A DNA stretch of 64,000 nt from an uncultured virus (IMG/VR IMGVR_UViG_3300031566_000024) (Duplodnaviria; Heunggongvirae; Uroviricota; Caudoviricetes). Of this stretch, positions 31,094 through 59,292 are shown one piece after another (the stretch's first letter is position 1; every line of letters begins with the position of its first letter). The stretch lies in IMG/VR virus record IMGVR_UViG_3300031566_000024. One strand, given 5' to 3'. The position numbers were made by a program, and so were the translations under genes. Below the pieces are notes generated by a model. It was not told the origin of the DNA. It saw nothing but the letters and a program-made list of their open reading frames with translations, and did not search any database.

Positions 31094-33226
31094 ATGGCAA
31101 TAAAACCATTAGATGATCTTACTTTTGCAACAGCATCAATAACAGATCCGGCTACCGGACAGCCAAACAAGATAGTACCTAACGTAACTTATCAGACAAA
31201 TGGGTGGGTGAGTTTTGATACAGCCCCTTTTTCTTGGTTTAATTACTTGTTTAACGGCTATTACACGTGGCAACAATATTTTGAAGCCACTACTGACGAT
31301 ATTTTACTAAATAATCTGACAATTGCAGGGAATAAAACTTTTTCAGGGAGTACTATATTTCAAGCTAACATTAATGTAGACATTAATGTGTTTTCGGTTA
31401 ACACAACGTCAAATTTAGTTGGCGTCAAAGCTGATTTGGCTGTGGTATCGCCGGGGGCCGACGGTCTAATTGCAGAAGGCATTTTTCCAGTTACTTCACG
31501 CCGTGACACAAGCACAGTTGGTTTCAGTGTATTACAGTCTTTTCAAATGAAAAACAGTAGCGGCGACTACACACCTTATGCTAATTTTCTGTCTGTTATC
31601 GATGATAACACCGCCGGAGCCGAGTGTGGTTCTTTTCACATACGCTGTGTGAGTGCGGGCAATATAAGCACCCCTCAATTTATTTTCAACGATACTGGAA
31701 ATTTTACAGCAATTACAAGTATAACGATTAATGATACATTTATTAATGCTTCCGAAATAGGGATTAATAAATTAACAACGGGCAACAGGACTGCAAAACT
31801 TGATTTGTATTCGGATGATACAAATCCTTTTGGTTTAGAAATTCTAAGAAGTAGTGGTGTAAATGGTACTACGCAGCTATTGCATCATGGTACTGGCAAT
31901 CTAAGCTTTGAAACATTAGACACAAGTGCAATGAATTTTTCGACTGGAAGTACCAGCCGTGCTGTTATAGAGGCAAATGGTAATTTTGCATATAAAACAA
32001 ATTTACTTTTCGTAGATTATGTTAATAGCCGAATCGGTATCAAAAAAACTCCAACGGTGCACAACCTGGAAGTGCTAACAAGCGCTGCTATTGGAAGCAC
32101 TGTTGTAGCATCAAGCATGATTGGTATTAATCAATTAGGTACTGGTGATAGGGGCGCCTATATAGATTTTGTAGCAGAGGATACCAACCCAAATTCCGTA
32201 AGAATTATAAGAAATAGCGGAGTGAATGGTAGTTACAGCACAACTAATCAAGGCGACGGTCAAACGGTATATGAAAATGTTGGTATCGGATCACATAGAT
32301 TTCGAAATAATGGCGCCGATTCATTATATGTAACTTCTGCAAATCAAATACAAGCAGTTGCGAATACCAATGCGACATCAAAAGACACCGGCGCCTTTGT
32401 GGTGACATTGGGCGGAATGGGAATTGAACAGGATGTATGGCTGGGTGGCAGCCTTAATCATGCGAGTGCGCTGTTATTCAAGACGGGGGGAAATGAAGGC
32501 TTACGCCTTAGTAATAGTAAACTTAGTACATTAGGAGAACTTACTCCTGATTGCAGCCCTGGGGGACTTACTTTACAGCAAGGGCCTAACGATGGTTATA
32601 TTTTAACATGTAAATCAACCGATGTTGCTCATGGTATGACAACAATAGCGGAAACAGACACATATGCAACCTTTGACAAGTTCCAAGGAGGACAAGGGGG
32701 ATTGCAAATTATAGGACTAAACGGAGGTACTGGAATTAGGGGTATCTCTATATCTAGTTACGCGCCCACAACAGATAATACTACTAGTGTGGCGGGAACT
32801 GGTCAAATCGAACTTGTCAGTTACTTAAAAACCGGAACAACCGGAGGAAGTTTAGCAAGTGACGCCAATTTACTTGCTATGCGTAATGCTGGACTAACTA
32901 GACACCTTTTTAAGGGTGATGGAGATATACGCACAAGTACAGGAGTTCTAAGTATATATGATAACGAAAACGACATGTTATTAGTACACGCAGCAAGAAA
33001 CGTGCTATCAGGGAATACCTCACCATTTAAGGATAATAAAGAGTTTAAAAAATACGCCACAAGACTAAACGAATTGGGTATCATTGAAAATGGATTTGTA
33101 AGTCATCACAAAATGATGCAGCTCAACTTAGGCGCAATGGGGCAAGTTTGGAATATGATTAAAGGTATGGCAAAAGAATTCAATATTTCAGAAAAAAAAC
33201 TATTAACCTTTGCAAAACAATATTAA
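31094..33226 (+). CDS. Tail fibre protein
   Basis: P..WFN.L N-terminal anchor; Gly/Asn/Thr-rich beta repeats with internal duplication (IGIN.L.TG.R.A..D...DTNP....I.R.SGVNG twice). Confidence 0.85.
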   Translation: MAIKPLDDLTFATASITDPATGQPNKIVPNVTYQTNGWVSFDTAPFSWFNYLFNGYYTWQQYFEATTDDILLNNLTIAGNKTFSGSTIFQANINVDINVFSVNTTSNLVGVKADLAVVSPGADGLIAEGIFPVTSRRDTSTVGFSVLQSFQMKNSSGDYTPYANFLSVIDDNTAGAECGSFHIRCVSAGNISTPQFIFNDTGNFTAITSITINDTFINASEIGINKLTTGNRTAKLDLYSDDTNPFGLEILRSSGVNGTTQLLHHGTGNLSFETLDTSAMNFSTGSTSRAVIEANGNFAYKTNLLFVDYVNSRIGIKKTPTVHNLEVLTSAAIGSTVVASSMIGINQLGTGDRGAYIDFVAEDTNPNSVRIIRNSGVNGSYSTTNQGDGQTVYENVGIGSHRFRNNGADSLYVTSANQIQAVANTNATSKDTGAFVVTLGGMGIEQDVWLGGSLNHASALLFKTGGNEGLRLSNSKLSTLGELTPDCSPGGLTLQQGPNDGYILTCKSTDVAHGMTTIAETDTYATFDKFQGGQGGLQIIGLNGGTGIRGISISSYAPTTDNTTSVAGTGQIELVSYLKTGTTGGSLASDANLLAMRNAGLTRHLFKGDGDIRTSTGVLSIYDNENDMLLVHAARNVLSGNTSPFKDNKEFKKYATRLNELGIIENGFVSHHKMMQLNLGAMGQVWNMIKGMAKEFNISEKKLLTFAKQY

Positions 33227-34045: not shown

Positions 34046-34146
34046 GCTTGCTGCATATCCGGAAACACCACAGCAAGCATTTTAATAAATAAATTAACTC
34101 CTATTTATTTAACCCGGCGCTTTATCATTCAAGAGCCGGGTGTTTT
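34046..34146. terminator. Paired terminators between convergent operons
   Basis: GCTTGCTG/CAGCAAGC 34046-34078 and ACCCGGC/GCCGGGT 34112-34141. Confidence 0.75.
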
Positions 34147-34298
34147 ACTCGTATTTTTCAAAATAACCCTTTCTTTTAAACTCTTTCCGTACCCGTACCA
34201 ACTATTCCCCCTCCCATCTTCTAAACATTCTAATATGCAAGCGTCTCTCATTAATCGGTCATACTCTTTTTTGTAATTGTAATCATTTCATTATTCAT
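34145..34298 (-). pseudogene. Frameshifted small phage gene
   Basis: AGGAG RBS, MNNEMITITK then an A6 run; adding one A continues KEYDRLMRDACILECLEDGRGNSWYGYG. Confidence 0.55.
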
Positions 34299-34955
34299 TT
34301 ATTTTCTCCTTTGTTTTTCTGTTTTATTCCCATATTTCCAGCCGACAGAACATCCATTATTTATATTCCAATTCACAACATCAAGATTGGCTTGCCCCTG
34401 GGGAGTGCCTGGTTTGATTTCCATATTGTTGTTATTTAAATAAAGGCGTGTAAGTCCCATAAGTCCATTAAGCGGACTTATGGGACTTATTGAGTTACCG
34501 TCTAAATCAAGGTCCGTAAGTCCACTTAATGGGCTGATGTCGCTTATTGAATTGCTGTATAAATAAAGGTATTCACGCTCTGTAAGTCCTCTTAATGGGC
34601 TGAGGTCACTTATTGAGTTGTATGATAAATCAAGATATGTAAGCGCTGTAAGCCCACTTAATGGGCTTATGTCACTTATTTTGTTGTCGTCTAAATCAAG
34701 GGATGTAAGCGCTGTAAGCCCGCTTAATGGGTTTATGTCGCTTATTGAGTTGTTATATAAATTAAGGTCTGTAAGCGTTGTGCAGTATTCTAAACCGGCA
34801 ATATTTGAAATCTTTTTCATACTAGCACTTAATGATTTTATCAATACCAAATCAAAAGCCAAAATCTTTCCAGTTGGCTTGCCAATCTTTAAACGGATGA
34901 CAGATTCTAAATTTGGATCAGGAAAATTCACAACCATATTATTTTCATTTTTCAT
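34299..34955 (-). CDS. Internalin-like LRR protein 7 (6 LRR units)
   Basis: N-cap FPDPNLE..IR, 22-aa LxxLxxLxLxxNxIxDxxPL repeats, C-cap MEIKPGT.QGQ.NLD.VNW. Confidence 0.93.
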   Translation of the reverse strand: MKNENNMVVNFPDPNLESVIRLKIGKPTGKILAFDLVLIKSLSASMKKISNIAGLEYCTTLTDLNLYNNSISDINPLSGLTALTSLDLDDNKISDISPLSGLTALTYLDLSYNSISDLSPLRGLTEREYLYLYSNSISDISPLSGLTDLDLDGNSISPISPLNGLMGLTRLYLNNNNMEIKPGTPQGQANLDVVNWNINNGCSVGWKYGNKTEKQRRK

Positions 34956-35812
34956 TTATTTTCTCCTCTGATTTCCGTTTTATTTCCATATTTCCAGTTA
35001 ACGTCACACTCATTATCCAGATGCCTGTTAACAATATCAAGGTTAGTTTGTCCCTGGGTGGTGCCTGGTTTGATTTCCATGTCGTTGTTCTGTAAATAAA
35101 GGTATTTAAGCGCTGTAAGCCTGTTTAATGGTGTGATGTCACTTATTGAGTTGTTAGCTAAATGAAGGTATGTAAGAGCTGTAAGGCCGCTTAATGGGCT
35201 GATATCAGTTATTGAGTTGTTATCTAAACCAAGGATTTCAAGCGCTGTAAGCCTGCTTAATGGGCTTACGTCAGTTATTGAGTTGTATGATAAACAAAGT
35301 TCTGTAAGCCCTGTAAGCCTGCTTAATGTGCTTATGTCAGTTATTGAGTTACCGTCTAAATAAAGGTCTTCAAGTTCTGCAAGTCCACTTAATGGGCTGA
35401 TATCACTTATTGAGTTGTTATCTAAATGAAGATATGTAAGCGCTGTAAGTCCGCTTAATGGACTGATGTCACTTATTAAGTTATAGTATAAATAAAGTTC
35501 TGTAAGTGCTGTAAGCCTGCTTAATGAGCTTATGTCGGTTATTGAGGTGTTGTGTAAATCAAGGGATGTAAGCTCTGTAAGCTCTCTTATTGGGCTTAGA
35601 TCACTTATTGAGTTGTTATCTAAACCAAGGTATGTAAGAGCTGTACAACATTCTAAACCGGTAATATTTGAAATATCTTTATTGCTAGCACTTAATGATT
35701 TTATTCCGAACAAATCACAAGCCAAAATCTCCCCAATTGGCTTGTTGATCTCTAAACGGATGATAGATTCTAAATTTGGATCAGGAAAATTCACAACCAT
35801 ATTATTTTTCAT
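34952..35812 (-). CDS. Internalin-like LRR protein 6 (9 LRR units)
   Basis: Same caps, 9 units. Confidence 0.93.
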   Translation of the reverse strand: MKNNMVVNFPDPNLESIIRLEINKPIGEILACDLFGIKSLSASNKDISNITGLECCTALTYLGLDNNSISDLSPIRELTELTSLDLHNTSITDISSLSRLTALTELYLYYNLISDISPLSGLTALTYLHLDNNSISDISPLSGLAELEDLYLDGNSITDISTLSRLTGLTELCLSYNSITDVSPLSRLTALEILGLDNNSITDISPLSGLTALTYLHLANNSISDITPLNRLTALKYLYLQNNDMEIKPGTTQGQTNLDIVNRHLDNECDVNWKYGNKTEIRGENK

Positions 35813-36344
35813 TTATTTCTCCTTTGTTTTCAGTTTTATTCCCATATTTCCAGTTAACATAACAACCATTATCTATATGCCAATTAACAACATCAAGATT
35901 AGTCTGCCCTTGGGTAGTGTCTGGTTTGATTTCCATGTCGTTGTAATTTAAATCAAGGTATGTAAGAGCTGTAAGCCCACTTAATGGACTTATGTCACTT
36001 ATTTTGTTGTTATCTAAATAAAGCTTTGTAAGCTTTATAAGTCCACTTAATGGACTTATGTCAGTTATTAAGTTACCGTCTAAATAAAGTTCTGTAAGCT
36101 TTATAAGTCCATTAAGTGGACTTAGGTCACTTATTGAGTTGTCATTTAAACTAAGGTATATAAGCGCTGTGCAACATTCTAAACCGTTAATATTTGAAAT
36201 ATCCTTAAAACCAGCAATTAATGATTTTATCACGATCAAATCAGATTCTAAAATATCCCCAGTTGGTTTATTGATCTTAAAACGGATGATAGCTTCTAAA
36301 TTTGGATCAGGGAAATTCACAGCCATATTATTTTTATTTTTCAT
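35802..36344 (-). CDS. Internalin-like LRR protein 5 (4 LRR units)
   Basis: Same caps, 4 units. Confidence 0.93.
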   Translation of the reverse strand: MKNKNNMAVNFPDPNLEAIIRFKINKPTGDILESDLIVIKSLIAGFKDISNINGLECCTALIYLSLNDNSISDLSPLNGLIKLTELYLDGNLITDISPLSGLIKLTKLYLDNNKISDISPLSGLTALTYLDLNYNDMEIKPDTTQGQTNLDVVNWHIDNGCYVNWKYGNKTENKGEINEK

Positions 36345-37074
36345 TTATTTCTCCTTTGTTTTCCGTTTTATTTCCATATTTCCAGCCGACATAACACCCA
36401 TTATTTAGATGCCAATTAACAACATCAAGATTTATTTGCCCTTGGGGAGTGCCTGGTTTAATTTCCATGTCGTTGTTATCTAAATCAAGGGATGTAAGCG
36501 CTGTAAGCCCACTTAATGGGCTGATATCAGTTATTGAGTTGTTAGATAAACCAAGGTGTTTAAGCGCTGTAAGCCCACTTAATGTGCTGATATCAACTAT
36601 TTCGTTCATGTCTAAATCAAGGAATGTAAGCCCTGTAAGGCTGCTTAATGGTGTTAGGTCAGTTATTTTGTTGCCGGATAAATCAAGGGATGCAAGCCCT
36701 TTAAGGCCGCTTAAAGGGCTTATGTCGCTTATTAAGGTGACAGATAAATCAAGGGATGTAAGCTCTGTAAGCCCTCTTAATGGGCTGATGTCACTTATTG
36801 AGTTATCAGATAAATCAAGGCCTGTAAGAGCTGTAAGCCTGCTTAATGGGCTGATGTCGCTTATTGAGTTGCCGTATAAATAAAGGGATGTAAGCGCTGT
36901 ACAGTACTCTAAACCGGTAATATCAGAAATATCTTTATTGCTAGCACCTAATGATTTTATTTTGACCAACTCAGATGATAGGATATCCCCTGTTGGTTTG
37001 TTGATCTTAAAACGGATGACATCTTCAAGATTTGGATCAGGAAAATTCACACCCTTATTATTTTTATTTTTCAT
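36334..37074 (-). CDS. Internalin-like LRR protein 4 (7 LRR units)
   Basis: Same caps, 7 units. Confidence 0.93.
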   Translation of the reverse strand: MKNKNNKGVNFPDPNLEDVIRFKINKPTGDILSSELVKIKSLGASNKDISDITGLEYCTALTSLYLYGNSISDISPLSRLTALTGLDLSDNSISDISPLRGLTELTSLDLSVTLISDISPLSGLKGLASLDLSGNKITDLTPLSSLTGLTFLDLDMNEIVDISTLSGLTALKHLGLSNNSITDISPLSGLTALTSLDLDNNDMEIKPGTPQGQINLDVVNWHLNNGCYVGWKYGNKTENKGEINEK

Positions 37075-37930
37075 TTATTTCTCCTTTGATTTCTGTTTTA
37101 TTCCCATATTTCCAGTTAACATAACATCCGTCATTCAGATGCCAATTAACAATATCAAGATTAGTTTGTCCCTGGGTGGTGTCTGGTTTGATTTCCATGT
37201 CGTTGTTAGATAAATCAAGGTATGTAAGCTTTGTAAGTTCGCTTAGTGGACTTATGTCACTTATTGAGTTGCCGTCTAAATAAAGTTCTGTAAGCTTTAT
37301 AAGTCCACTTAATGGACTGAGGTCACTGATTGAGTTGACATTTAAACTAAGGTATATAAGCTTTATAAGTCCACTTAATGGACTTATGTCACTTATTGAG
37401 TTGTCGCATAAACCAAGGCGTGTAAGCGCTGTAAGCCCGTTTAATGGGGTGATATCAGTTATTGAGTTGCTATTAAAACTAAGTGATGTAAGCGCTGTAA
37501 GCCTGCTTAATGGTGTTAGGTTAGTTATTTTGTTGCCGGCTAAACCAAGAAATGTAAGCTTTGTAAGCCCTCTTAATGGGCTTATGTCTCTTATTGAGTT
37601 GTTGTCTAAACCAAGGCGTGTAAGTCCTGTAAGTTCACTTAATGGGCTTAGGTCACTGATTACGTTGTATGATAAACTAAGGTATATAAGCGCTGTAAGT
37701 TCGCTTAATGGACTGATGTCACTTATTGAGTTGCTATTTAAACTAAGGTCTGTAAGAGCTGTACAGTACTCTAAACCAGTTATATTTGAAATACCCTTAA
37801 AACCAGCAATTAATGATTTTATCCCGACCAAATCAGATGATAGAATATCCCCTTTTGGCTTGTTGATCTCTAACCGGATGACAGCTTCAAGATTTAGATC
37901 AGGAAAATTCACAACCATATTATTTTTCAT
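37064..37930 (-). CDS. Internalin-like LRR protein 3 (9 LRR units)
   Basis: Same caps, 9 units. Confidence 0.93.
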   Translation of the reverse strand: MKNNMVVNFPDLNLEAVIRLEINKPKGDILSSDLVGIKSLIAGFKGISNITGLEYCTALTDLSLNSNSISDISPLSELTALIYLSLSYNVISDLSPLSELTGLTRLGLDNNSIRDISPLRGLTKLTFLGLAGNKITNLTPLSRLTALTSLSFNSNSITDITPLNGLTALTRLGLCDNSISDISPLSGLIKLIYLSLNVNSISDLSPLSGLIKLTELYLDGNSISDISPLSELTKLTYLDLSNNDMEIKPDTTQGQTNLDIVNWHLNDGCYVNWKYGNKTEIKGEINEK

Positions 37931-38524
37931 TTATTTTCTCCTCTGATTTTCTGTTTTATTTCCATGTTTCCAGTTAACGTCACACCCATTATTCAGATGC
38001 CAATTAATAACATCAAGATTAGTTTGTCCCTGGGTAGTGCCTGGTTTTATTTCCATGTTGTTGTTATATAAATCAAGTTCTGTAAGAGCTGTAAGTTCAC
38101 TTAATGGGCTGATGTCACTTATTTTGTTGTCATATAAACGAAGGAATGTAAGCGTTGTAAGTCCTCTTAATGGACTGATGTCACTGATTGAGTTGCTATC
38201 TAAATAAAGCTTTGTAAGCTTTGTAAGCCCACTTAATGGACTGATGTCACTGATTGAGTTGCTATCTAAATAAAGCTTTGTAAGCTTTGTAAGCCCACTT
38301 AACGGACTGATATTGGTTATTGGGTTATCTTCTAAATCAAGTTCTGTAAGCGCTGTACAGTATTCTAAGCCGGTAATATCAGAAATATCAGACGAACTAG
38401 CATATAATTCAGTTATCACGATCAAATCAGATTCTAAAATATCCCCAGTTGGTTTATTGATCTTAAAACGAATGATATCTTCTAGATTTTTATCAGGGAA
38501 ATTCACAACCATATTATTTTTCAT
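37931..38524 (-). CDS. Internalin-like LRR protein 2 (5 LRR units)
   Basis: Same caps, 5 units, one exactly duplicated. Confidence 0.93.
   Translation of the reverse strand: MKNNMVVNFPDKNLEDIIRFKINKPTGDILESDLIVITELYASSSDISDITGLEYCTALTELDLEDNPITNISPLSGLTKLTKLYLDSNSISDISPLSGLTKLTKLYLDSNSISDISPLRGLTTLTFLRLYDNKISDISPLSELTALTELDLYNNNMEIKPGTTQGQTNLDVINWHLNNGCDVNWKHGNKTENQRRK
38166..38302. repeat. Perfect 66-bp-period tandem duplication of one LRR unit
   Basis: CTTAATGGACTGATGTCACTGATTGAGTTGCTATCTAAATAAAGC... starts at 38166 and again at 38232. Confidence 0.9.
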
Positions 38525-39124
38525 TTATTTTCTCCTTTGTTTTTCCGTTTTATTCCCATGTTTCCAGCCGACATAACATCCGTTATCCAGATGCCAATTA
38601 ACAATATCAAGATTAGTCTGCCCCGGGGCAGTGCCTGGTTTGATTTCCATGTCGTTGTAATTTAAAACAAGGGATGTAAGCTTTGTAAGTCCACTAAGCG
38701 AACTTATGTCGGTTATTTTGTTGTAGTCTAAATAAAGGTATATAAGCCCTGTAAGCCTGCTTAATGTGCTTATGTCACTGATTGAGTTGCCGTCTAAATA
38801 AAGTTCTGTAAGCTTTATAAGCCCTCTTAATGGGTTGATGTCACTTATTGAGTTGTCATTTAAACTAAGGTATATAAGCTCTGTAAGTTCGCTTAATGGG
38901 CTAATATCAGTTATTTTGTTGTTATATAAGTAAAGGTCTGTAAGAGCTGTACAGTACTCTAAACCAGTTATATTTGAAATCTTTTTATTGCTAGCACGTA
39001 ATGATTTTATTCCGACCAAATCAGAAGCTAAAATATCCCCAGTTGGTTTATTGATCTTTAAACGGATGACAGCTTCTAGATTTTTATCAGGGAAATTCAC
39101 AACCATATTATTTTCATTTTTCAT
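38525..39124 (-). CDS. Internalin-like LRR protein 1 (5 LRR units)
   Basis: Start moved to ATG 39124 (MKNENNMVVNFPD, GGGGAG RBS) to match paralogs. Confidence 0.92.
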   Translation of the reverse strand: MKNENNMVVNFPDKNLEAVIRLKINKPTGDILASDLVGIKSLRASNKKISNITGLEYCTALTDLYLYNNKITDISPLSELTELIYLSLNDNSISDINPLRGLIKLTELYLDGNSISDISTLSRLTGLIYLYLDYNKITDISSLSGLTKLTSLVLNYNDMEIKPGTAPGQTNLDIVNWHLDNGCYVGWKHGNKTEKQRRK

Positions 39125-39929
39125 TTGTTTCTCCCCACTCTTCCCTTTTACCATATTGTTTACACACATACCACCACCAATGATTGGTTTTGTCAATGCT
39201 ACACGCATACCGCAATTTATGTTTTTGCATCTTTTTTTCCTCTGTACCGTCTTTTGTGTACATAGTCCTAAACGGGTTACAACAATAACCGGCAATACAG
39301 TTCTTACATGTGTCATCACTTTGTTTTATGACATACTGCTGATTACTAATCAAATCAACACAAGTCTTTTCTTTGTATTCTTTTTTCCATATATACCAAG
39401 CATAGACTTGCATACCTGTTATATATTTTCCGTCATCCCTAATTTCATCGCTTAACATAGGGTAACGGGTGAATGTCTCTATGTTTGTGAGGTAAAACCC
39501 ATTAAGCCCTGTAAATATTTTTTCGGAAAACCTTTGTTGTCCGGAAAAATACGATTGCGGTAGTAAAAAAGCAAATGCTTTTTGCGCAACAAGGCCTGCT
39601 TGCTGGATAAAAGCGCCAGCGTGTATAAACGGCGGATTACCTATTATGTAAGCTGGTTTTTCTGCAACAAAATCAAAAGGTTTTAAGAAATCAAATTCAG
39701 GATACTGAATTGCCTTAACAGTCTTAAAATATTGCTGCAACACCTTTACCATCGCACCCTTACCCGCTGCTGGCTCCAATACTGGCAGCGTAAAATCAAA
39801 AAAATCTTTATACTTATCTATAAATTGTCTTGTCATAGAATAAGGTGTCTGGTAATCATCATCCTTATTGCGTTGACCCTGGTTAACCTTACTATAACAT
39901 TTACCCGTTTTATTTTTTTCTTTTTCCAT
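39114..39929 (-). CDS. DNA amino-methyltransferase (probably N6-adenine) with Cys-rich tail
   Basis: D.Y.TP, LEPAAGKG (SAM binding), IIGNPPF (catalytic), AFLLP, YAWYIW. Confidence 0.88.
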   Translation of the reverse strand: MEKEKNKTGKCYSKVNQGQRNKDDDYQTPYSMTRQFIDKYKDFFDFTLPVLEPAAGKGAMVKVLQQYFKTVKAIQYPEFDFLKPFDFVAEKPAYIIGNPPFIHAGAFIQQAGLVAQKAFAFLLPQSYFSGQQRFSEKIFTGLNGFYLTNIETFTRYPMLSDEIRDDGKYITGMQVYAWYIWKKEYKEKTCVDLISNQQYVIKQSDDTCKNCIAGYCCNPFRTMYTKDGTEEKKMQKHKLRYACSIDKTNHWWWYVCKQYGKREEWGETNEK

Positions 39930-42621: not shown

Positions 42622-42657
42622 AGTATATTACATAAGTTTGTTTATGTCAACAAGTTT
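42622..42657 (-). promoter_or_regulatory. Conserved-family promoter at the head of the minus-strand operon that ends in the LRR array
   Basis: AAAACTTGTTGACA; -35 at 42645-42650, 17 bp, TATACT at 42622-42627. Confidence 0.85.
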
Positions 42658-43550
42658 TTATATGTTTTCTTAACTTTCTTCATAAACAACTTACTTTCAT
42701 CTTGTGTAAGGTTGTCGGCGGCCTTTTCAGCACTTATAATAAAACTAACTACACCCAAGCTATCAAGTAACAAACTAAGTTTTTGACTACCGTCTCTGCC
42801 TGCGCTATCAGGATCAAAGTAGATGAAAACTACCTTGAAACAAGATAGTAACAAGACTTGTTGCTCTGTGAAGATACGACCTAAGGTCGCGCAAGTGTTA
42901 TCGCCTAACTTCCAAACTTTCATAAATCCCTCTGTTACTATACACCAATCTTTTTGACAGTTATCGAAGTTGTAAAGTATATGCTTATGGTGCACTATCT
43001 CTTTTGGCTTTGAACACGCTTTGTACCGTTGCTCGCTTTGATTAGTTATGTCTCTTCCTTGGTAGCTAACCAACTTTTTATTGTAAAAAAAGGGTACAAC
43101 AACCCTTAATCGATATGCACCAAGTGGGCCGGTCCCTGTTATCTTATACTTATGTATGAGGTAATCAGGGCTAAATCCTCTTTGTTTCAAGTAGTTTTTA
43201 TGTAATTTTGTTAGATTTTGCCCTGGTAATATAACTTTTTTGGGTATTTCTTTTAGTTTTCTTTCATTATTGTTTAATTTTAATAATAATTGATAACCTG
43301 GACGATACTGTTTTACGATCTGTTGTGGGCTCGTATCCGGTGCAAGTAGTTTTAGTGTGGCAAAAATTGATTTTTTACCACATTTCCAACAGCTCGCACC
43401 CATACCATTTTTTGCAATTCCAAAATGGTACCCGTGATCATCACAGCCAGGGAAAGGGCAATGAATATTTAAGAAATTTTCAGACGTGTTTGGACCTTCC
43501 GTAATGAAATCAATATTGTAATCCCCTAGAAACCGTTCAACATCGAACAT
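42642..43550 (-). CDS. DNA primase (DnaG-like)
   Basis: CPF..C.D..YH...CWKCG zinc finger; SYQGR, LYN.D, TEG, FDPD.AG Toprim motifs. Confidence 0.92.
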   Translation of the reverse strand: MFDVERFLGDYNIDFITEGPNTSENFLNIHCPFPGCDDHGYHFGIAKNGMGASCWKCGKKSIFATLKLLAPDTSPQQIVKQYRPGYQLLLKLNNNERKLKEIPKKVILPGQNLTKLHKNYLKQRGFSPDYLIHKYKITGTGPLGAYRLRVVVPFFYNKKLVSYQGRDITNQSEQRYKACSKPKEIVHHKHILYNFDNCQKDWCIVTEGFMKVWKLGDNTCATLGRIFTEQQVLLLSCFKVVFIYFDPDSAGRDGSQKLSLLLDSLGVVSFIISAEKAADNLTQDESKLFMKKVKKTYKNLLT

Positions 43551-43611
43551 TATTTTAAAATTCCTTTTCTGTGATATTAATCTTATTCATTCTTGTACTT
43601 CTTTTTAACGC

Positions 43612-43896
43612 CTACTTGTGACGGTGCCGATGATGTTGTGGTGGTGCCGATAATGGGTGTGGTTTTGGGTAATCAGGTGCGTCACTGTTTTTTGTATATA
43701 CTCTTTTTCTCCCATCCCTGGTTTTTGCATATGCATTATTTATCTTCTCTTCAATTATCTGGTATTTTTTATCAAATTTATGTATAGTTTTCTTTTGTTC
43801 TGCAAAGATTTTTTTTAATTCATACCGCATAATAGTAAACAAACAACCGGATAAAAACACACAAAAACATAACATTCCTGTTTGAAAATCTGTCAT
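43612..43896 (-). CDS. Small membrane protein
   Basis: AGGAGG RBS; N-terminal TM helix. Confidence 0.7.
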   Translation of the reverse strand: MTDFQTGMLCFCVFLSGCLFTIMRYELKKIFAEQKKTIHKFDKKYQIIEEKINNAYAKTRDGRKRVYTKNSDAPDYPKPHPLSAPPQHHRHRHK

Positions 43897-43909
43897 TTAA
43901 AAACCTCCT

Positions 43910-45547
43910 TTATAAGTTCACAATATCCGTAAACCCTTCTTTCTTATAATCATCAATCCTCATAAGTGTATGTTTTTCAAGTATGCAATTATGACTATCA
44001 AAAAAATCATATACATTAACACTAGTTTTACCTGTATCAATCCTTAACGCACGCCCTAACCTTTGTATTGTTTGTATATAGCTTTTTCCCCCGCCGGCAA
44101 TTATCAATGTGCGTATACAATTAATAGATATACCCTGATCAAATATACCGGACGCGATTAATACAAAGTCATCTGTATCATTGAAAAGCTCCACATTATA
44201 TTCACGGATAGACACAGCATCGCTACCGGAAATAAATACGCTGTTAGGGATGATGGAAGCAAGTTTTTGCCCGTGTTCGATCCTTTTCACCAATATCATA
44301 GTTTTGTTTGATTTTAGGGTTATTTCTTTGATCTTTTGATTCCTTATGTCGTTGTCAATAATTCCCATTTGTTCGGCATTTCTCCAGCGTTTCTCGTATA
44401 AGTTATCTGGTTTGGTAATTGGCACCATGAATATTCTAGGCTTTGCTATTTTTTCCTGGGCAATGAGATTTACAGCCGGCAATGTATACTCAATATCTCC
44501 AATGTACTCTTGCACTTTAAGTTTTTTTACTCTTTCTTTTTCGACAAATGGCGTTGCAGAAAAGCCAAACCGGTAAATAAAATCATTACTTTGAAGAAAT
44601 GACCGAAATGTGTATGACACTGCTGTGTGACATTCATCAACAATTACAGTATCATATTTTTCTTTCAACTTGTGTACAGAATTGATACTACACATAATTA
44701 TTTTTCTACCTTTCTCATCAACTACCGCACCTGTAATAATGCCTACATTGAGTCCGGCATCCTGTGCGCGTTTGTAGGTTTGTCTTAATACCGATACCGC
44801 TTTGAACAGTAATAATACTTTTCTATTCATTAATTTACAAAGGGCGAGAAATATTTCAGATTTTCCGCCGCTTGTCGGAAGCTTAATTACCACGTTTACT
44901 TTTTTAAGACAGACCTTAACGGCCTTTATTTGGTAATCATATAATGACAAGTAACCGAGACAATCCTTAATTTCACTGTTTGTAAACTTGTACTTAGTTT
45001 TGTTTCTTTTATCGTTAGTTTTGACCTTGTTATTATCTAGTTTTAATCTAGCTACAAGCCCTTTTTTGAACCCTATACCCATTTTTACATAAGGGTTAGT
45101 TTTGTTTTTTTCTAAACTAGCAAACTCTACTATTTGGCGTTTGCTTGCGTCATATGATCCCGATAAGTAACACATACTATAATCATACGTTTGATATACA
45201 ATCAATAATCTATTGAGAAAATCAGTATCTTTTGATTCTACCGTCAAATGGTTGTTATACAATTGAACGGTAATCGGCTTATTGCTAATTAGTTTGTCTG
45301 AGTTAGTTTCTTTGCAGCCTGGTTTGAAAGTTATATCGAAACCTAATTTTCTAATTATCTTCAATGTTTCCGGGCGGTTATGTACTATCCATTGTTTGTT
45401 ATAGTCTGTGTATTTTCTGTATTTACTTGGAATTGTTCTTATTGCAGCAATGATTTTAATAAATTCCGGACGTGGTAGATATTTTATTTTCAGTGTGAAT
45501 TTGTCATCAACGCAAATCGCCTCAAGCACGATTTCTTTACTAATCAA
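43910..45547 (-). CDS. Superfamily 2 helicase (UvsW-like)
   Basis: LYDYQ, PTSGGKS, DECH, SATP, QRLGR.LR. Confidence 0.93.
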   Translation of the reverse strand: MISKEIVLEAICVDDKFTLKIKYLPRPEFIKIIAAIRTIPSKYRKYTDYNKQWIVHNRPETLKIIRKLGFDITFKPGCKETNSDKLISNKPITVQLYNNHLTVESKDTDFLNRLLIVYQTYDYSMCYLSGSYDASKRQIVEFASLEKNKTNPYVKMGIGFKKGLVARLKLDNNKVKTNDKRNKTKYKFTNSEIKDCLGYLSLYDYQIKAVKVCLKKVNVVIKLPTSGGKSEIFLALCKLMNRKVLLLFKAVSVLRQTYKRAQDAGLNVGIITGAVVDEKGRKIIMCSINSVHKLKEKYDTVIVDECHTAVSYTFRSFLQSNDFIYRFGFSATPFVEKERVKKLKVQEYIGDIEYTLPAVNLIAQEKIAKPRIFMVPITKPDNLYEKRWRNAEQMGIIDNDIRNQKIKEITLKSNKTMILVKRIEHGQKLASIIPNSVFISGSDAVSIREYNVELFNDTDDFVLIASGIFDQGISINCIRTLIIAGGGKSYIQTIQRLGRALRIDTGKTSVNVYDFFDSHNCILEKHTLMRIDDYKKEGFTDIVNL

Positions 45548-48378: not shown

Positions 48379-48471
48379 CGGGCTGTGGTCTAATTGGGAG
48401 CGGCTATCTGATCCATAGCAGTAAGACAAGGGCAAACGCCTTTATTGTGAGTTCGAATCTTACCGGTCCGA
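48379..48471 (+). tRNA. Atypical tRNA-like gene, anticodon GAT (Ile) with C37 and long variable arm
   Basis: CGGGCTG/CGGTCCG acceptor, GCTAT-CTGATCC-ATAGC anticodon arm, 27-nt variable arm, GTGAG-TTCGAAT-CTTAC T-arm. Confidence 0.65.
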
Positions 48472-48540
48472 TTGAAAAAACAGTATTGCTAATTTTTAAT
48501 TTCATTAATACTTATGGGGTGTCACTCTCATAAGTATTAT

Positions 48541-48611
48541 GGCCTAATAATCTAATGGTAGGATATTAGATTTTCGATCTAAGTACCGGGGTTCGACTCC
48601 CTGTTAGGCTA
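48541..48611 (+). tRNA. tRNA-Glu (TTC)
   Basis: GGCCTAA/TTAGGCT acceptor, ATCT/GGAT D-stem, TTAGA-TTTTCGA-TCTAA anticodon arm, CGGGG-TTCGACT-CCCTG T-arm; no encoded CCA. Confidence 0.9.
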
Positions 48612-48613
48612 AT

Positions 48614-49049: not shown

Positions 49050-50522
49050 ATGAATTTTACGATTGATAGAGTTGACAATAAAAAATTAAAAATGCTTGTT
49101 ATATCAATGATAGTGTCAACAAAAGTGTGCAGTGAAATTATACCTGTACTGAGAGTTAATCTTGATTTATTTTACGAGGTGTTCGAAAGTTTCTATAAGC
49201 CGGTTGTAACCTGGATCATTGAATTTTACGAACTTACAGAGAAAGCACCAGAAAAACATATACAAAATATATTTGACGACAAATCAGAAAAACTTGAAGG
49301 TACTGAGAAAAGTTTAATTCAGACTTTTCTGAAAACTCTTAATGATGAATATGTGAAATATGAAAAATACAATGAAGATTACGCAATTGATCAGGCAAAA
49401 ATATACTTGCGTGAAGCGAATCTGGCATTACTCACAAAAAAAATAAGTGCTGCAACAAAAGCAGGGAAACTAGATGATGCTGAAAATTATATTGCAACAT
49501 ATAACCAGATCGAAGCCAAAACACAGATATGCCAAGAGACGTCTATTGTGTATGGTAAAGAATTTTGGGATGATGATCCGGATAACAATCCCGATTCACT
49601 TTTTATAATGCCTGGTGCACTGGGCGACATTGCAGGCCCATTTGCACGCGGTGATTTTGTAGCGTTTAACGGCCCCAAAAAGCGCGGGAAATCATTCTGG
49701 CTCAAGCAAATAGCAATATGGGCGATGGAAAGTAATCTCAATGTAATCTATTTCAATATGGAAATGGCACATAAGAAATGCATACGCAGATTTAGACAAT
49801 ATTTCAGTGCCGAAACTCTACGATTGAAAGATAAAAAAACTGGATATGATGAAATCAGAATTCCGAAATTCATTGAAGCGGGTGACGAGTCTGGACAATG
49901 GGAAATGTCATACACAATGAAAAAGAAAAAGGGTGTAACAAAAGAGAAATCTAAAAATAAACAAAAACAATTACAAATCAAATACAGGGGCGATATCCGA
50001 TTCATTACGTATGCAGCAAACTCATTAACGCTGTCTATTGCTGATAAGAAAATTGACGAGTATTTCAACAATGGCTTTGTTGCAGACGTGATAATATTTG
50101 ACTCAATGGATTTGTTGAAATCTGGAAAACGGGACCAGGTACGGCAGGAAATCAATGAAAAATGGGGTGTAGGTCGAGAACTCGCACAAAAAAAACACGC
50201 GTTAATTGTTACAGTATCGCATACAAACAAGGAAACTAATAAAAGAGCTATTACAGGTTCGGACTTTCAAGAGGATGATAGAAAAGGCAATTGGTTAACT
50301 GCTGGATTTGGGCTTAACCAAACAGAGGATGAAAAAGAGACCGGTATTATGCGCGTGAATTGTTTAGTGAGTCGTGACAATTTTTTCACATCAAAAAATT
50401 TTGTATATGTTTTGGAGTGTCGAGATATTGGGAAAATTTATCTGGATTCAAGACATCAATGGGAAATAAAAAATAATGAGAGGAGTAGCAATGAAAATAA
50501 GCAAAAGCCAGCTTATCAGTAA
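49050..50522 (+). CDS. Replicative helicase (DnaB-like)
   Basis: GPKKRGKS Walker A, FNMEM, IIFDSMD, TVSH, EDDRK, GLNQT..EK..G.MR. Confidence 0.9.
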   Translation: MNFTIDRVDNKKLKMLVISMIVSTKVCSEIIPVLRVNLDLFYEVFESFYKPVVTWIIEFYELTEKAPEKHIQNIFDDKSEKLEGTEKSLIQTFLKTLNDEYVKYEKYNEDYAIDQAKIYLREANLALLTKKISAATKAGKLDDAENYIATYNQIEAKTQICQETSIVYGKEFWDDDPDNNPDSLFIMPGALGDIAGPFARGDFVAFNGPKKRGKSFWLKQIAIWAMESNLNVIYFNMEMAHKKCIRRFRQYFSAETLRLKDKKTGYDEIRIPKFIEAGDESGQWEMSYTMKKKKGVTKEKSKNKQKQLQIKYRGDIRFITYAANSLTLSIADKKIDEYFNNGFVADVIIFDSMDLLKSGKRDQVRQEINEKWGVGRELAQKKHALIVTVSHTNKETNKRAITGSDFQEDDRKGNWLTAGFGLNQTEDEKETGIMRVNCLVSRDNFFTSKNFVYVLECRDIGKIYLDSRHQWEIKNNERSSNENKQKPAYQ

Positions 50523-51552
50523 GATAGGCTTTTTTAAAAAACTAAAAAACCAGGCGGATGATAACCGTATATACATAGATGGTTCTGCTATGTACAAAGA
50601 CGGTAGAATTTCTTTTTTGGTTGTACAGTTAGAAACTGAAAATTTAAAAAAATATGTAATACCATACGCAGAATTTGTGAAGTTTCTTGACCGGGTGAAG
50701 GCCGACAAAGGCGATGAGATTACAATCGAGTATAACGAAGAAGGTACACAATTACAAATCAAATGTGGGCGGAAATGCTGTAATTTACCGGTTCTTAAAT
50801 GGGATGAGAAAAACGATAAAAAGATTGAAACATTTTACGATATACAACAAGGAAACGAGCTGTCTGTTGATTTTGTACAGGCGTTACAGCACTGTAAGGG
50901 CACAATTGACAAACAACGCGGCACGCCTAATAATAATATTGTAGTCGAAAAAGATTACACATGGTCATTCAACAGATACGCTTTTGCTAGGATGAAAAAT
51001 AATATAAGTTGTTTGGACACTTTGTACATTCCCGTTGAATATGTAGATATCTTAACGGTTTTGGGGCCCGTTAAAATTAGTCAAACAAAAAATGGCTTAT
51101 TTTTTGCAAGTGCTGGTAATGATATATTACAAATACACCAACCTGCATATCAAAGCCAGCATACCCCGAAAGATTTTTTCGATAAAATCACCATGTCGCC
51201 GGACATCTTCGACAGTAAAGCGTTGTTAGATGGAATTAGAACAGCCGAAATACTTGTTGAAAAAGAAGAAATTAAGCGTAGGAAGGTACTACTCAATTTT
51301 CAATTGGAAAAAATAACAATTACCGCTGAAAATGATAGCAGTAGTATTCTGTGTGAAATTTCACACAAGAGCCGGACGCTACAAAAAATTATTATAGACC
51401 CTGTAAATTTCACAAAGGGCATAAGTTTGTGTGAAAAAAATAATGTAATCAATATAATTTTTCATGATATTAACGAAAAAGCCGGATACGTGTTGTTTAC
51501 CAATGATAACAAAGAATATTTGGCAACTTATGAGAGAGTTATTAATGAATGA
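50491..51552 (+). CDS. Putative sliding clamp (beta-clamp-like)
   Basis: About 350 aa, alternating alpha/beta pattern, next to polymerase and clamp loader; AGGAG RBS. Confidence 0.55.
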   Translation: MKISKSQLISKIGFFKKLKNQADDNRIYIDGSAMYKDGRISFLVVQLETENLKKYVIPYAEFVKFLDRVKADKGDEITIEYNEEGTQLQIKCGRKCCNLPVLKWDEKNDKKIETFYDIQQGNELSVDFVQALQHCKGTIDKQRGTPNNNIVVEKDYTWSFNRYAFARMKNNISCLDTLYIPVEYVDILTVLGPVKISQTKNGLFFASAGNDILQIHQPAYQSQHTPKDFFDKITMSPDIFDSKALLDGIRTAEILVEKEEIKRRKVLLNFQLEKITITAENDSSSILCEISHKSRTLQKIIIDPVNFTKGISLCEKNNVINIIFHDINEKAGYVLFTNDNKEYLATYERVINE

Positions 51553-55026: not shown

Positions 55027-55029
55027 TTA

Positions 55030-55058
55030 TTGACATCAACAAAAATAACGGGTATAAT
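55030..55058 (+). promoter_or_regulatory. Consensus sigma70 promoter
   Basis: TTGACA, 17 bp, TATAAT. Confidence 0.88.
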
Positions 55059-55069
55059 TAGTATGGGAG

Positions 55070-55570: not shown

Positions 55571-55583
55571 AGGAGATTGTGAA

Positions 55584-56432: not shown

Positions 56433-56434
56433 TC

Positions 56435-57695: not shown

Positions 57696-57696
57696 A

Positions 57697-59149: not shown

Positions 59150-59280
59150 AATTAGCAATAGTAGGATCAAGAGGTTTCTACAACGTTAACGATTATAACA
59201 AGGTGCAGGATGCTATACATAGATTTTTTATTGATACAGCTATCAAGTTACAGAAACTGGTAATAATAATGCCAATATAA
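59146..59280 (+). pseudogene. Internally deleted SLOG/YspA-like gene (44 aa)
   Basis: MKLAIVGSRGF joined to IDTAIKLQKLVII; central SGGA.GAD and RN motifs absent. Confidence 0.55.
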
Positions 59281-59292
59281 AGGAAGGCAAAA

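What the first reader, a model, noticed from the sequence alone, without database searches (positions are those of the whole stretch)
34430..38960. Hypervariable LRR codons change bases 1-2 but keep base 3 (NNT/NNY)
Seen: the residue between the conserved CTT and TTA Leu codons is AAT, GAT, TAT, CAT, GGT, AGT, TGT, CGT or GTT (one TAC among those I read). The residue before the conserved Asn is mostly AAC, GAC, TAC, AGC, GGC or GTC. Known: AAY to NNY is the hallmark of adenine-directed DGR mutagenesis. Inference: either very strong diversifying selection over a short divergence time, or targeted mutagenesis supplied in trans. No reverse transcriptase or template repeat is visible here, and GAA, AAG, TCA and CAG codons at neighbouring variable positions do not fit a strict DGR pattern.
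Basis: partly seen in the sequence, partly recalled or inferred. Interest (0 to 1): 0.7.

Follow-up and report, generated by a model that had tools for sequence, protein, structure and literature searches.

The report
Phage array of variable LRR genes
A soil phage carries seven back-to-back genes for small leucine-rich-repeat proteins whose binding-face codons differ in almost every repeat, and the codon pattern that looked like retroelement-driven mutagenesis is explained by ordinary mutation, recombination and the genetic code.

Summary
In 45 units of 66 nt, the codon between CTT and TTA is NNT in 44 of 45, and the codon before the conserved Asn is NNC in 38 of 45. The units lie in seven tandem, minus-strand genes for small internalin-type LRR proteins without signal peptides, in a complete 64.8-kb myovirus-like genome.

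The DGR reading fails every test I could run:
- The genome has no reverse transcriptase, no Avd and no template repeat.
- Twelve of 23 adenine-majority columns are invariant.
- Inferred changes start from A no more often than composition predicts, 43 of 97 against 162 of 360.
- Contigs from three runs lie on the array pieces they cover without a difference.
- A sister genome differs only by one whole unit.

A close relative has three mosaic genes instead of seven. Selection for diversity is only weakly shown: omega is about 1 at the concave-face codons and about 4 at codon 8.

Base 3 is held partly by the genetic code, because N, D, Y and H are all NAY. It is also held by an unexplained invariance of the core codons of each unit.

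This scan has noted phage LRR arrays of another LRR class in two other genomes.

The parts
38525..39124 (-). LRR gene 6, first of the array: 199 aa, 4 full units plus cap. Its start overlaps the end of the methyltransferase-like gene by 11 nt.
   Evidence: ORF and translation; Pfam LRR_4 E 5.1e-26; units.
37931..38524 (-). LRR gene 5: 197 aa, 4 full units plus cap. Units 5.1 and 5.2 are a near-identical recent duplicate.
   Evidence: AF2 model pLDDT 91.9 with strands at unit codons 6-8. The sister protein P0013 lacks exactly one unit.
37064..37930 (-). LRR gene 4: 288 aa, 8 full units plus cap.
   Evidence: Best PDB sequence match is InlA 2omu_A, E 5.8e-86. Its counterpart in L004 is identical over 102 codons and mosaic after that.
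36334..37074 (-). LRR gene 3: 246 aa, 6 full units plus cap.
   Evidence: The counterpart in L004 is 244 aa.
35802..36344 (-). LRR gene 2: 180 aa, 3 full units plus cap.
34952..35812 (-). LRR gene 1: 286 aa, 8 full units plus cap.
34299..34955 (-). LRR gene 0, last of the array: 218 aa, 5 full units (one of them 9 nt short) plus cap.
34398..38953 (-). Span that holds the 45 units of 66 nt, interrupted by the caps of the seven genes. Unit consensus: CTT ACA GCG CTT ACA TAC CTT GAT TTA GAT AAC AAC TCA ATA AGT GAC ATA AGC CCA TTA AGC GGG. Codons 6, 8, 10 and 11 are hypervariable; codons 3 and 13 are less so.
   Evidence: Unit coordinates; codon table; aligned units.
39114..39929 (-). DNA-methyltransferase-like gene that heads the same tightly packed gene string. 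Its C-terminus (..GETNEK) resembles the ..GEINEK ends of the LRR genes.
   Evidence: phrog_799 E 5.1e-26; translation.
34129..34298 (-). Short ORF directly after the array, broken by a frame change at an A run. In the relative L004 the same reading is fused to the third LRR gene.
   Evidence: Sequence; L004 ORF 10001-10774; one extra base at 34266 in the contig of run X4.

Best explanation
The region is a germline-encoded family of seven tandem genes for small, signal-less, internalin-type LRR proteins in a contractile-tailed phage.

How it evolves. Each 22-residue unit keeps a fixed scaffold (L..L.L..N.I.DI.PL..L). The residues on or next to the concave-face beta-strand (unit codons 6, 8, 10, 11) differ from unit to unit. 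The diversity arose by ordinary point substitution, by duplication and loss of units and genes, and by recombination between paralogs. The concave positions are free to vary and are probably pushed to vary.

Why base 3 looks kept.
1. The residues favoured at these positions (N, D, Y, H, and also S, G, C) are NAY, AGY, GGY or TGY codons. They interconvert by single changes at bases 1 and 2. A purine at base 3 would give E, K, Q, R or a stop.
2. Whether base 3 is T or C is inherited from the founder unit.
3. The core codons of the unit are held at the codon level for a reason I could not establish.

It is not a DGR target.

Function (inferred). A panel of binding proteins with different specificities. 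They act either inside the infected cell or on the virion or released at lysis. The target is unknown.
For: Anatomy:
- Seven abutting or overlapping ORFs, all matching LRR_4 at E 5e-20 to 2e-48.
- Closest by sequence and by fold to InlA, InlB and InlF.
- The AF2 model (pLDDT 91.9) puts unit codons 6-8 in the beta-strands.
- No hydrophobic run longer than 4 residues in the first 40 residues of any of the seven proteins.

Ordinary descent:
- The tetrad E-Y-D-G is shared by units 2.1, 4.7 and 6.2, which differ at 0-1 of 12 hypervariable nt and at 5-8 of 54 other nt.
- Gene 4 and its L004 counterpart are identical over 102 codons, hypervariable codons included.
- P0013 equals gene 5 minus one unit.
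- Codons 8 and 10 are linked: mutual information 1.08 against 0.73 bits, P = 0.0008.

Recombination and birth-death:
- L004 has flanks 98.1% and 93-94% identical but only 3 LRR genes.
- Its first gene switches from gene-4-like (98.5-100%) to gene-6-like (91-94%).

Selection:
- Caps have omega 0.40 and 0.20.
- Scaffold omega is 0.40, against 0.97-1.26 at the variable codons.
- Codon 8 has omega 4.2-4.6.
- Differences between the two phages at codons 6, 8, 10 and 11 are 17 nonsynonymous to 0 synonymous.
- There are 41 distinct residue tetrads in 45 units.

Genetic code:
- N, D, Y or H fill 29, 31 and 29 of 44 units at codons 8, 10 and 11.

Against DGR:
-, as set out under the rival explanations.
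Against: - Positive selection is not formally shown. Omega for codons 6, 8, 10 and 11 together is 0.97 (P = 0.59), and codon 10 has pN/pS 0.44.
- The 17:0 count has a chance probability of about 0.06 by my own arithmetic from the site counts. It also includes multi-base changes that may be unit swaps.
- Founder inheritance alone does not explain why base 3 is invariant at codons 1, 2, 4, 5, 7, 8, 9, 12 and 13. It varies freely at codons 14-22 and in the caps of the same genes, where dS is 0.44-0.51.
- The unit tree is poorly resolved (66 nt) and recombination violates it.
- No experiment or expression data bear on function, and the host is unknown.
Confidence: 0.62

Rival explanations
1. Same origin by ordinary mutation and recombination, but the concave positions are merely unconstrained. 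Any polar or aromatic residue will do, and there is no selection for diversity.
For: Omega at codons 6, 8, 10 and 11 is 0.97, and it is 1.26 (P = 0.17) for the six variable codons. Pairwise pN and pS at the variable codons are 0.495 and 0.524.
Against: - Seven intact paralogs with caps under purifying selection.
- 41 distinct tetrads in 45 units.
- Omega about 4 at codon 8, and 12 and 14 nonsynonymous to 0 synonymous events at codons 5 and 13, P about 0.01 each.
- 17:0 in the between-phage comparison.
- Residue use is narrow (Y, D, N, S, G), not what drift alone would give.
Confidence: 0.2
2. Recombination-driven diversification. The invariant codons in the 5' half of each unit serve as a nucleotide-level scaffold for short-patch gene conversion between the 45 units, perhaps by the phage's own UvsX-like, RusA-like and SbcCD-like proteins. 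Binding-face codons are then reshuffled at a raised rate.
For: - Synonymous sites of codons 1, 2, 4, 5, 7, 8, 9, 12 and 13 show at least 4 events on about 7.1 sites. The other codons show at least 35 events on about 7.9 sites (sums are mine).
- Distance at hypervariable codons is uncorrelated with scaffold distance, r = -0.02.
- Paralog mosaics between close relatives.
- Recombination genes lie at 56637-60081.
Against: - Identical arrays in the contigs of three runs, and near-identity with the sister genome.
- 102 identical codons between two phages whose flanks differ by 2-6%.
- Codons 8 and 10 are linked.
- The invariant stretches are only 3-9 nt long between variable codons.
- Base 3 of codon 10, in the middle of the invariant zone, varies freely.
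Confidence: 0.1
3. Adenine-directed mutagenesis by a DGR supplied in trans, by the host or by another element.
For: NNT and NNC codons at two positions resemble diversified AAY codons, and N, D, Y, S and G are the residues a DGR typically yields.
Against: - No RT, no Avd and no template in the complete genome.
- 12 of 23 A-majority columns are invariant, among them the A's of ACA, TTA, AAC, TCA and ATA next to the variable codons.
- Inferred changes at bases 1-2 of the variable codons start from A in 43 of 97 cases, where A makes up 162 of 360 letters, P = 0.92. G changes as often.
- T-majority columns are the least variable, so the opposite strand does not fit either.
- The fold is LRR, not C-type lectin or Ig. 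The variable codons are spread over 45 units in 7 genes, not gathered in one 3'-terminal region.
- There is no variation between the contigs of three runs.
Confidence: 0.02

Closest known systems
Listeria internalins (InlA, InlB, InlF, InlH): the 22-residue internalin-type LRR domain
   Same: Same repeat length and consensus, with an N-terminal cap that aligns. Best PDB sequence match is InlA 2omu_A, E 5.8e-86. Best Foldseek matches are InlA, InlF and InlB, E about 3e-14. In both, the ligand face is the concave beta-sheet.
   Different: No signal peptide, no Ig-like inter-repeat domain and no wall anchor. The proteins are 180-288 aa with a short C-terminal cap of their own. That cap is found in only 19 proteins at E <= 1e-3 among 1.84 billion representatives. 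They are encoded by a phage, not by a Gram-positive pathogen.
Tandem hypervariable LRR locus of Flavobacterium psychrophilum (Altae-Tran et al. 2020, PMC10392669; passages read)
   Same: Many tandem genes for LRR proteins with units of about 22 residues. Repeat number per protein varies, a few positions are hypervariable on one face, and strains differ in gene number and content because of recombination.
   Different: Those proteins carry an N-terminal secretion peptide and a type 9 secretion signal, and LRR gene fragments lie between the genes. Here the genes abut or overlap, carry no signal, show no fragments, and the carrier is a phage.
DGR variable proteins (for example Mtd of Bordetella phage BPP-1; recalled from memory, not fetched)
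   Same: A phage-borne binding protein whose ligand-contacting residues are encoded by NNY-like codons rich in N, D, Y, S and G.
   Different: None of the four DGR features tested as present or absent was found: RT, template repeat, Avd and adenine specificity. The fold also differs, the variable sites are spread over 45 repeats, and the diversity is inherited rather than regenerated.
Plant NLR/R-gene clusters, for example the coffee SH3-CNL cluster (PMC3113787; abstract read)
   Same: Birth-and-death of tandem LRR genes, gene conversion between paralogs, and variation concentrated on the solvent-exposed x residues of xxLxLxx.
   Different: In the coffee cluster positive selection was significant. 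Here omega exceeds 1 only at single codons. The host kingdom, the domain context (no NB-ARC) and the scale all differ.
Phage LRR arrays noted earlier in this scan (e1-5802017, e1-6041663; AI notes, unchecked)
   Same: Uncultured phages with 6-8 small LRR paralogs that share a scaffold and differ on the predicted binding face.
   Different: Those are T4-type or giant phages with the 21-residue cysteine-ladder (InlJ-like) LRR class. This one is a 65-kb phage with the 22-residue InlA class. No shared sequence was found.

Membership tests
Diversity-generating retroelement (DGR) target | A reverse transcriptase encoded with the target | tested here: not met
   PF00078 six-frame search of the whole 64,757-bp record gave 0 matches at E <= 0.01. 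The control genomes did respond.
Diversity-generating retroelement (DGR) target | A template repeat nearly identical to the variable region | tested here: not met
   blastn-short of all 45 units against the genome: the listed best matches outside the array are 12 to 17 nt long, E >= 0.011.
Diversity-generating retroelement (DGR) target | Variation confined to positions that are adenine in the template | tested here: not met
   12 of 23 A-majority columns are invariant. Mean variability is A 0.136, C 0.211, G 0.292, T 0.105. 43 of 97 inferred changes start from A, against 162 of 360 A in composition, P = 0.92. This is a proxy test, because there is no template to compare with.
Diversity-generating retroelement (DGR) target | An accessory variability determinant (Avd) | tested here: not met
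   PF05635: 0 matches at E <= 0.1.
Diversity-generating retroelement (DGR) target | The variable region differs between members of one population | tested here: inconclusive
   Logan contigs of runs X1, X2 and X3 lie on the array pieces they cover with 0 other letters, except one X3 piece (35795-36058) with 14. Contigs drop rare variants and no raw reads were on offer.
Internalin-type LRR domain (Pfam LRR_4 / LRR_8) | 22-residue repeats L..L.L..N.I.DI..L..L with an N-terminal cap | tested here: met
   LRR_4 at E 5e-20 to 2e-48 in all 7 proteins. 45 units in register. InlA alignment from residue 29.
Internalins proper (Listeria surface or secreted virulence proteins) | A signal peptide, an Ig-like inter-repeat domain and, in most, a wall or membrane anchor | tested here: not met
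   The proteins start at the cap, and no hydrophobic run exceeds 4 residues in the first 40. They end about 45 residues after the last repeat. No signal-peptide predictor was available.
Tandem hypervariable LRR loci (F. psychrophilum type) | Tandem LRR genes with variable repeat number and strain-to-strain differences in gene number | tested here: met
   Seven genes with 3-8 full units. The relative L004 has 3 genes. A sister protein lacks one unit.
Tandem hypervariable LRR loci (F. psychrophilum type) | Secretion peptide, type 9 secretion signal, and LRR gene fragments between the genes (as described in PMC10392669) | tested here: not met
   No N-terminal hydrophobic stretch. The genes abut or overlap by 4-11 nt with no room for fragments.

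The most novel reading that the evidence does not exclude
The codon-level invariance of the structural core of every unit (CTT ACA ... CTT ACA ... CTT NNT TTA ... AAC NNA) is a nucleotide-level scaffold. It lets the phage's own recombination enzymes exchange short patches between the 45 units. The array would then be a recombination-driven generator of binding specificities in a virus, working like pilin or VlsE antigenic variation or like lamprey VLR assembly, rather than a static gene family.
Probability: 0.08. Interest if true: 0.8.

Novelty: new variant of a known kind. Interest (0 to 1): 0.35.

Why it matters
The codon signature that prompted the finding is a useful warning. NNY codons at the variable positions of a repeat protein are not by themselves a DGR mark. 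The residues that binding faces favour (N, D, Y, H) are all NAY and sit one base apart from each other.

The locus itself is less ordinary.
- Small signal-less LRR proteins in tandem are missing from PHROGs for this protein.
- They are all but missing from 50,697 deposited phage records. Twenty-one records match, all below 60% identity, and 18 of them are unannotated records labelled Listeria phage.
- Two full-text searches for phage-encoded LRR proteins or arrays found nothing on the subject.

If these proteins are a panel of binders aimed at host proteins or at cell surfaces, they would be a compact, evolvable recognition module of phages. They would also be a natural source of LRR binder scaffolds.

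Tried and rejected
- **Closer relatives.**
  - Megablast of 10.5 kb around the array against the deposited phages found no match.
  - Protein-pattern scans of viral contigs found only one contig, which ends inside its first LRR gene (L001/L002).
  - The metagenome scan gave the source contig, L004, and that same truncated contig.
  - Species-representative genomes gave none.
- **Unit at DNA level elsewhere.** An exact degenerate pattern in viral contigs gave 8 loci with one match each. I did not examine them. Single matches are about what a pattern of 17 fixed bases should give by chance (my estimate).
- **RNA or DNA structure as the cause of silent-site patterns.**
  - RNAalifold on 37 unit-to-unit segments predicted no pair.
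  - The border hairpin AAGCCCA/TGGGCTT, which the terminator scan flags on the + strand, has 71.0% of cells paired against 70.2% in shuffles; 98 of 500 shuffles reach that value. Rejected.
- **Dual coding.** The long + strand ORFs across the array read a frame whose third positions coincide with the sense third positions (worked out by hand). They cannot constrain base 3.
- **Codon usage.** Leu TTA 0.32, CTT 0.22, TTG 0.20; Asn AAC 0.33. This does not explain position-specific CTT, TTA and AAC.
- **Phage tRNAs.** Only tRNA-Glu and one odd tRNA were found, so there is no link to the Leu, Thr or Asn codons.
- **Minimum-event counts.** 40 nonsynonymous and 16 synonymous events at six variable codons, against 29 and 23 elsewhere. 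These give no omega above 1 and saturate, so they were not used as a test of selection.
- **Taxonomy of the cap relatives.** The cluster look-up gave no organism names. The host stays unknown.
- **Complex prediction.** I did not run one with the tail fibre. Neighbourhood alone was not reason enough.
- **Literature.** The only mention of LRRs in the Bacteroides DGR preprint is as an extra domain of large variable proteins. The anti-defence preprint mentions only plant LRRs.

Full report
**What is there**

The window is almost the whole of a virus record of 64,757 bp (CheckV completeness 100, classed as linear). PHROGs matches show a contractile-tailed phage with three gene blocks:
- On the + strand: portal, major head protein, sheath, tape measure and baseplate genes, from 10168 to 31072. 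A 710-aa ORF (31094-33226) with no family match follows, probably the fibre.
- On the minus strand, 42642-45547: primase and helicase.
- On the + strand, 49050-62854: polymerase, clamp loader, recombinase, nuclease and terminase genes.

Between the late genes and the minus-strand block lie seven ORFs on the minus strand:
- 38525-39124
- 37931-38524
- 37064-37930
- 36334-37074
- 35802-36344
- 34952-35812
- 34299-34955

They abut or overlap by 4 to 11 nt. The first overlaps the end of a DNA-methyltransferase-like gene (39114-39929; phrog_799, E 5.1e-26). All seven match Pfam LRR_4 (E 5e-20 to 2e-48).

Each protein has three parts:
- a conserved N-terminal cap of about 55 residues that starts at the first residues;
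- 3 to 8 full 22-residue repeats;
- a conserved C-terminal cap of about 45 residues.

None has a hydrophobic run longer than 4 residues in its first 40 residues, so I see no classical signal peptide. No predictor was available.

The closest solved structures are Listeria internalins, both by sequence (InlA 2omu_A, E 5.8e-86) and by fold (InlA, InlF, InlB). An AlphaFold2 model of the 197-aa protein is confident (pLDDT 91.9). Its strands fall at residues 61-63, 83-85, 105-107, 127-129 and 149-151, which are unit codons 6 to 8. By established knowledge of LRR structure, the x residues of LxxLxLxxN line the concave ligand face. Here these are unit codons 6, 8, 10 and 11.

**The observation**

Cut in register, the genes give 45 units of 66 nt: 38 full units and 7 that run into the C-cap.

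| Unit codon | Codons seen | Entropy at bases 1 / 2 / 3 (bits) |
|---|---|---|
| 8 | GAT 13, TAT 13, GGT 6, AGT 6, CAT 2, AAT 1, TGT 1, CGT 1, GTT 1, TAC 1 | 1.73 / 1.04 / 0.15 |
| 11 | NNC in 38 of 45, NNT in 6, ATG once | 1.46 / 1.19 / 0.72 |

Against the codon usage of 39 other ORFs of the phage (two-fold NNY codons end in T at 0.683), 44 of 45 T has P = 7.7e-7 and the C excess at codon 11 has P = 8.5e-14.

Two qualifications apply. Codons 6 and 10 are as variable as 8 and 11, but their base 3 varies too (1.33 and 1.45 bits). And 'bases 1-2 change, base 3 stays' also holds for the moderately variable codons 2, 5 and 13, which are NNA.

**Is it a DGR?**

Every feature I could test fails.
- **Enzymes.** The complete record has no RVT_1 match and no Avd match.
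- **Template.** No unit-like sequence lies outside the array. The listed best blastn-short matches are 12 to 17 nt.
- **Adenine columns.**
  - Of 23 unit columns whose majority base is A, 12 vary in under 5% of units. Among them are the A's of ACA, TTA, AAC, TCA and ATA that lie between the variable codons.
  - Mean variability is lowest for T (0.105) and A (0.136) and highest for G (0.292).
- **Direction of change.** On a maximum-likelihood tree of 55 full units (37 of this window, without the short unit 0.4, and 18 of the relative L004) with Fitch reconstruction, changes at bases 1-2 of codons 6, 8, 10 and 11 start from A 43, G 38, T 9 and C 7 times, 97 in all. The make-up of those columns is A 162, G 101, T 70 and C 27 of 360 (my sum). 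The A share is as expected (P = 0.92).
- **Stability.**
  - Three units in genes 2, 4 and 6 share the tetrad E-Y-D-G. They differ at 0-1 of 12 hypervariable nucleotides and at 5-8 of 54 others.
  - Gene 4 and its counterpart in L004 are identical over 102 codons.
  - A protein from a sister contig (P0013) equals gene 5 minus exactly one unit.
  - Logan contigs of three runs lie on the array pieces they cover with no other letter, except one X3 piece (35795-36058) with 14. Contigs hide rare variants, and one of these runs may be the source sample.
- **Independence of sites.** Codons 8 and 10 are not independent: mutual information is 1.08 bits against 0.73 in shuffles, P = 0.0008. Twelve of the 15 codon pairs tested show no association; pairs 5-6 and 6-8 do so only at P about 0.03.

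**Is it diversifying selection?**

Partly.
- **Pairwise Nei-Gojobori values per codon**:

  | Unit codon | pN/pS |
  |---|---|
  | 8 | 4.6 |
  | 6 | 1.4 |
  | 11 | 0.93 |
  | 10 | 0.44 |

- **Tree-based counts**:

  | Codon set | Omega | P |
  |---|---|---|
  | 6, 8, 10 and 11 together | 0.97 | 0.59 |
  | 3, 6, 8, 10, 11 and 13 | 1.26 | 0.17 |
  | the rest | 0.40 | not given |
  | 8 alone | 4.2 | 0.098 |

- **Codons 5 and 13.** They show 12 and 14 nonsynonymous events against none synonymous, P about 0.01 each, uncorrected.
- **Between the two phages.**
  - The two best-matching gene pairs differ at 60 unit codons, 43 nonsynonymous and 17 synonymous.
  - At codons 6, 8, 10 and 11 the split is 17 to 0. 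By my arithmetic that has a chance of about 0.06, and several of these are multi-base changes that may be unit swaps.
- **Caps.** They are under purifying selection (omega 0.40 and 0.20), and their dS of 0.44 and 0.51 shows that the paralogs are not young.

So the concave positions evolve about 2.5 times faster than the scaffold relative to silent change. There are 41 distinct tetrads in 45 units. Formal proof of omega above 1 is limited to single codons, on a tree that 66 nt cannot resolve and that recombination violates.

**How the family evolves**

L004 is a close relative. The flank on the methyltransferase side is 98.1% identical and the flank on the baseplate side is 93-94% identical. 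The body of the fibre ORF (about 31339-33212) does not align at all. L004 has three LRR genes where this phage has seven.

Its first gene is gene-4-like over nt 133-528 (98.5-100%), gene-6-like over nt 529-726 (91-94% against 86-88% to gene 4), and gene-4-like again after that. Contigs of run X4 join across 1.5 kb of the array.

Together with the one-unit difference of P0013, this shows birth and death of units and genes, and exchange between paralogs. It is the mode described for the tandem LRR locus of Flavobacterium psychrophilum (PMC10392669, passages read) and for plant R-gene clusters (PMC3113787, abstract read).

**Why base 3 is kept**

Part of the answer is the genetic code.
- N, D, Y and H fill 29, 31 and 29 of 44 units at codons 8, 10 and 11. 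All four are NAY codons one base apart.
- The other common residues (S as AGY, G, C) also carry Y here.
- A purine at base 3 would give E, K, Q, R or a stop.
- The same residue set dominates the hypervariable positions of the Dictyostelium LRR proteins described in PMC10392669. That paper invokes no DGR for them.

The choice of T at codon 8 and C at codon 11 then reflects the founder unit.

This is not the whole answer. Codons 1, 2, 4, 5, 7, 8, 9, 12 and 13 show at least 4 synonymous events on about 7.1 synonymous sites. The remaining codons show at least 35 on about 7.9 (sums are mine). By tree counts the figures are 4.8 against 99.2 events.
- The minor T/C allele is 1 of 44 at codons 8 and 12, against 42 of 138 pooled at codons 15, 16, 18 and 21 (P = 2.8e-5).
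- Leu is CTT at unit codons 1 (38 of the 38 units that have Leu there), 4 (43 of 44) and 7 (45 of 45), and TTA at codon 9 (44 of 45).
- Two of the five conserved Leu columns of the N-cap vary among TTA, CTT, CTA or TTG.
- The 18 full units of L004 show the same pattern.

Codon usage, phage tRNAs, an antisense frame and a conserved hairpin do not explain this (the frame was worked out by hand). I leave it as unexplained. The candidates are short-patch gene conversion centred on the 5' half, selection for translational accuracy at core residues, or an unknown nucleotide-level role.

**Function (inferred, not shown)**

The proteins look like a panel of binders with a fixed scaffold and different faces.

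*For an intracellular role, such as binding host proteins or counter-defence:*
- no signal peptide;
- the same strand and tight coupling with a methyltransferase-like gene, downstream of the replication genes.

*For an exposed role, on the virion or released at lysis:*
- the array adjoins the fibre and baseplate genes;
- it varies between relatives together with the fibre;
- the four other proteins I inspected of the 19 that share the C-cap (E <= 1e-3 among 1.84 billion representatives) carry the same caps behind lipoprotein-like signals (three) or a multi-pass membrane domain (one), so in bacteria the module may be surface-exposed, though this topology is my reading and was not tested.

I put roughly even odds on the two and cannot separate them with these tools.

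**Comparison and novelty**

The domain is an internalin-type LRR. The proteins are not internalins proper, because they lack the signal, the inter-repeat domain and the anchor. The locus works like the known tandem hypervariable LRR loci, but it lacks their secretion signals and sits in a phage.
- PHROGs has no family for it at E <= 1e-5.
- Only 21 of 50,697 deposited phage records match at all, every one below 60% identity. Eighteen are unannotated records labelled Listeria phage, which I suspect carry host internalin genes (not checked).
- Full-text searches for phage-encoded LRR/internalin proteins and for phage LRR tandem arrays found 4 unrelated papers and none.
- Earlier notes of this scan describe phage LRR arrays of a different LRR class in two other genomes (unchecked leads). 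The kind therefore recurs in uncultured phages.

I class it as a new variant of a known kind.

**Verdict**

The DGR reading is refuted as far as sequence can refute it. The selection reading is partly supported. The interest lies less in the codon pattern than in a phage-borne LRR binder family and in the unexplained codon-level invariance of its scaffold.

Noticed in passing
window 34398-38953, every 66-nt unit: Synonymous sites are strongly uneven inside the unit. The exact codons of the core (CTT, ACA, CTT, ACA, CTT, NNT, TTA, AAC, NNA at unit codons 1, 2, 4, 5, 7, 8, 9, 12, 13) are kept in 43-45 of 45 units. Base 3 of codons 14-22, and of the caps, varies freely. Codon usage, tRNAs, the antisense frame and a hairpin do not explain it.
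   Followed up: partly
window 34129-34298 (-) and L004 10001-10774: The short ORF after the last LRR gene is split by a frame change at an A run in this genome. In L004 the same reading is fused to the third LRR gene (257 aa). The contig of run X4 has one extra base at 34266.
   Followed up: partly
window 31094-33226 (+) against L004 11692-13773: The probable tail-fibre gene (710 aa against 693 aa) does not align at the DNA level between the two phages, although the baseplate genes next to it are 93-94% identical. Fibre and LRR array change together.
   Followed up: partly
window 48379-48471 (+): ARAGORN calls a 93-nt tRNA of unknown identity with a four-base anticodon (ccat), next to a tRNA-Glu (48540-48612).
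   Followed up: no
window 39114-39124 and the gene junctions 37064-37074, 36334-36344, 35802-35812: The methyltransferase-like gene ends in ..GETNEK and overlaps the first LRR gene by 11 nt. LRR genes 4, 3 and 2 end in ..GEINEK and overlap the next gene in the same way. The duplication unit therefore seems to run from one such junction to the next.
   Followed up: no
window 63201-64000 and position 7: After the record's last base the window continues at about base 140 of the record, and the last 58 bases of the record repeat bases 82-139. The genome may therefore be circularly permuted or terminally redundant, although it is classed as linear.
   Followed up: partly
window 34647-34671 and 37562-37586 (+), and other unit borders: The codons for S-P-L-S-G-L form a 7-bp inverted repeat (AAGCCCA .. 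TGGGCTT), which the terminator scan flags on the + strand. Pairing across 37 units is no better than in shuffles.
   Followed up: yes
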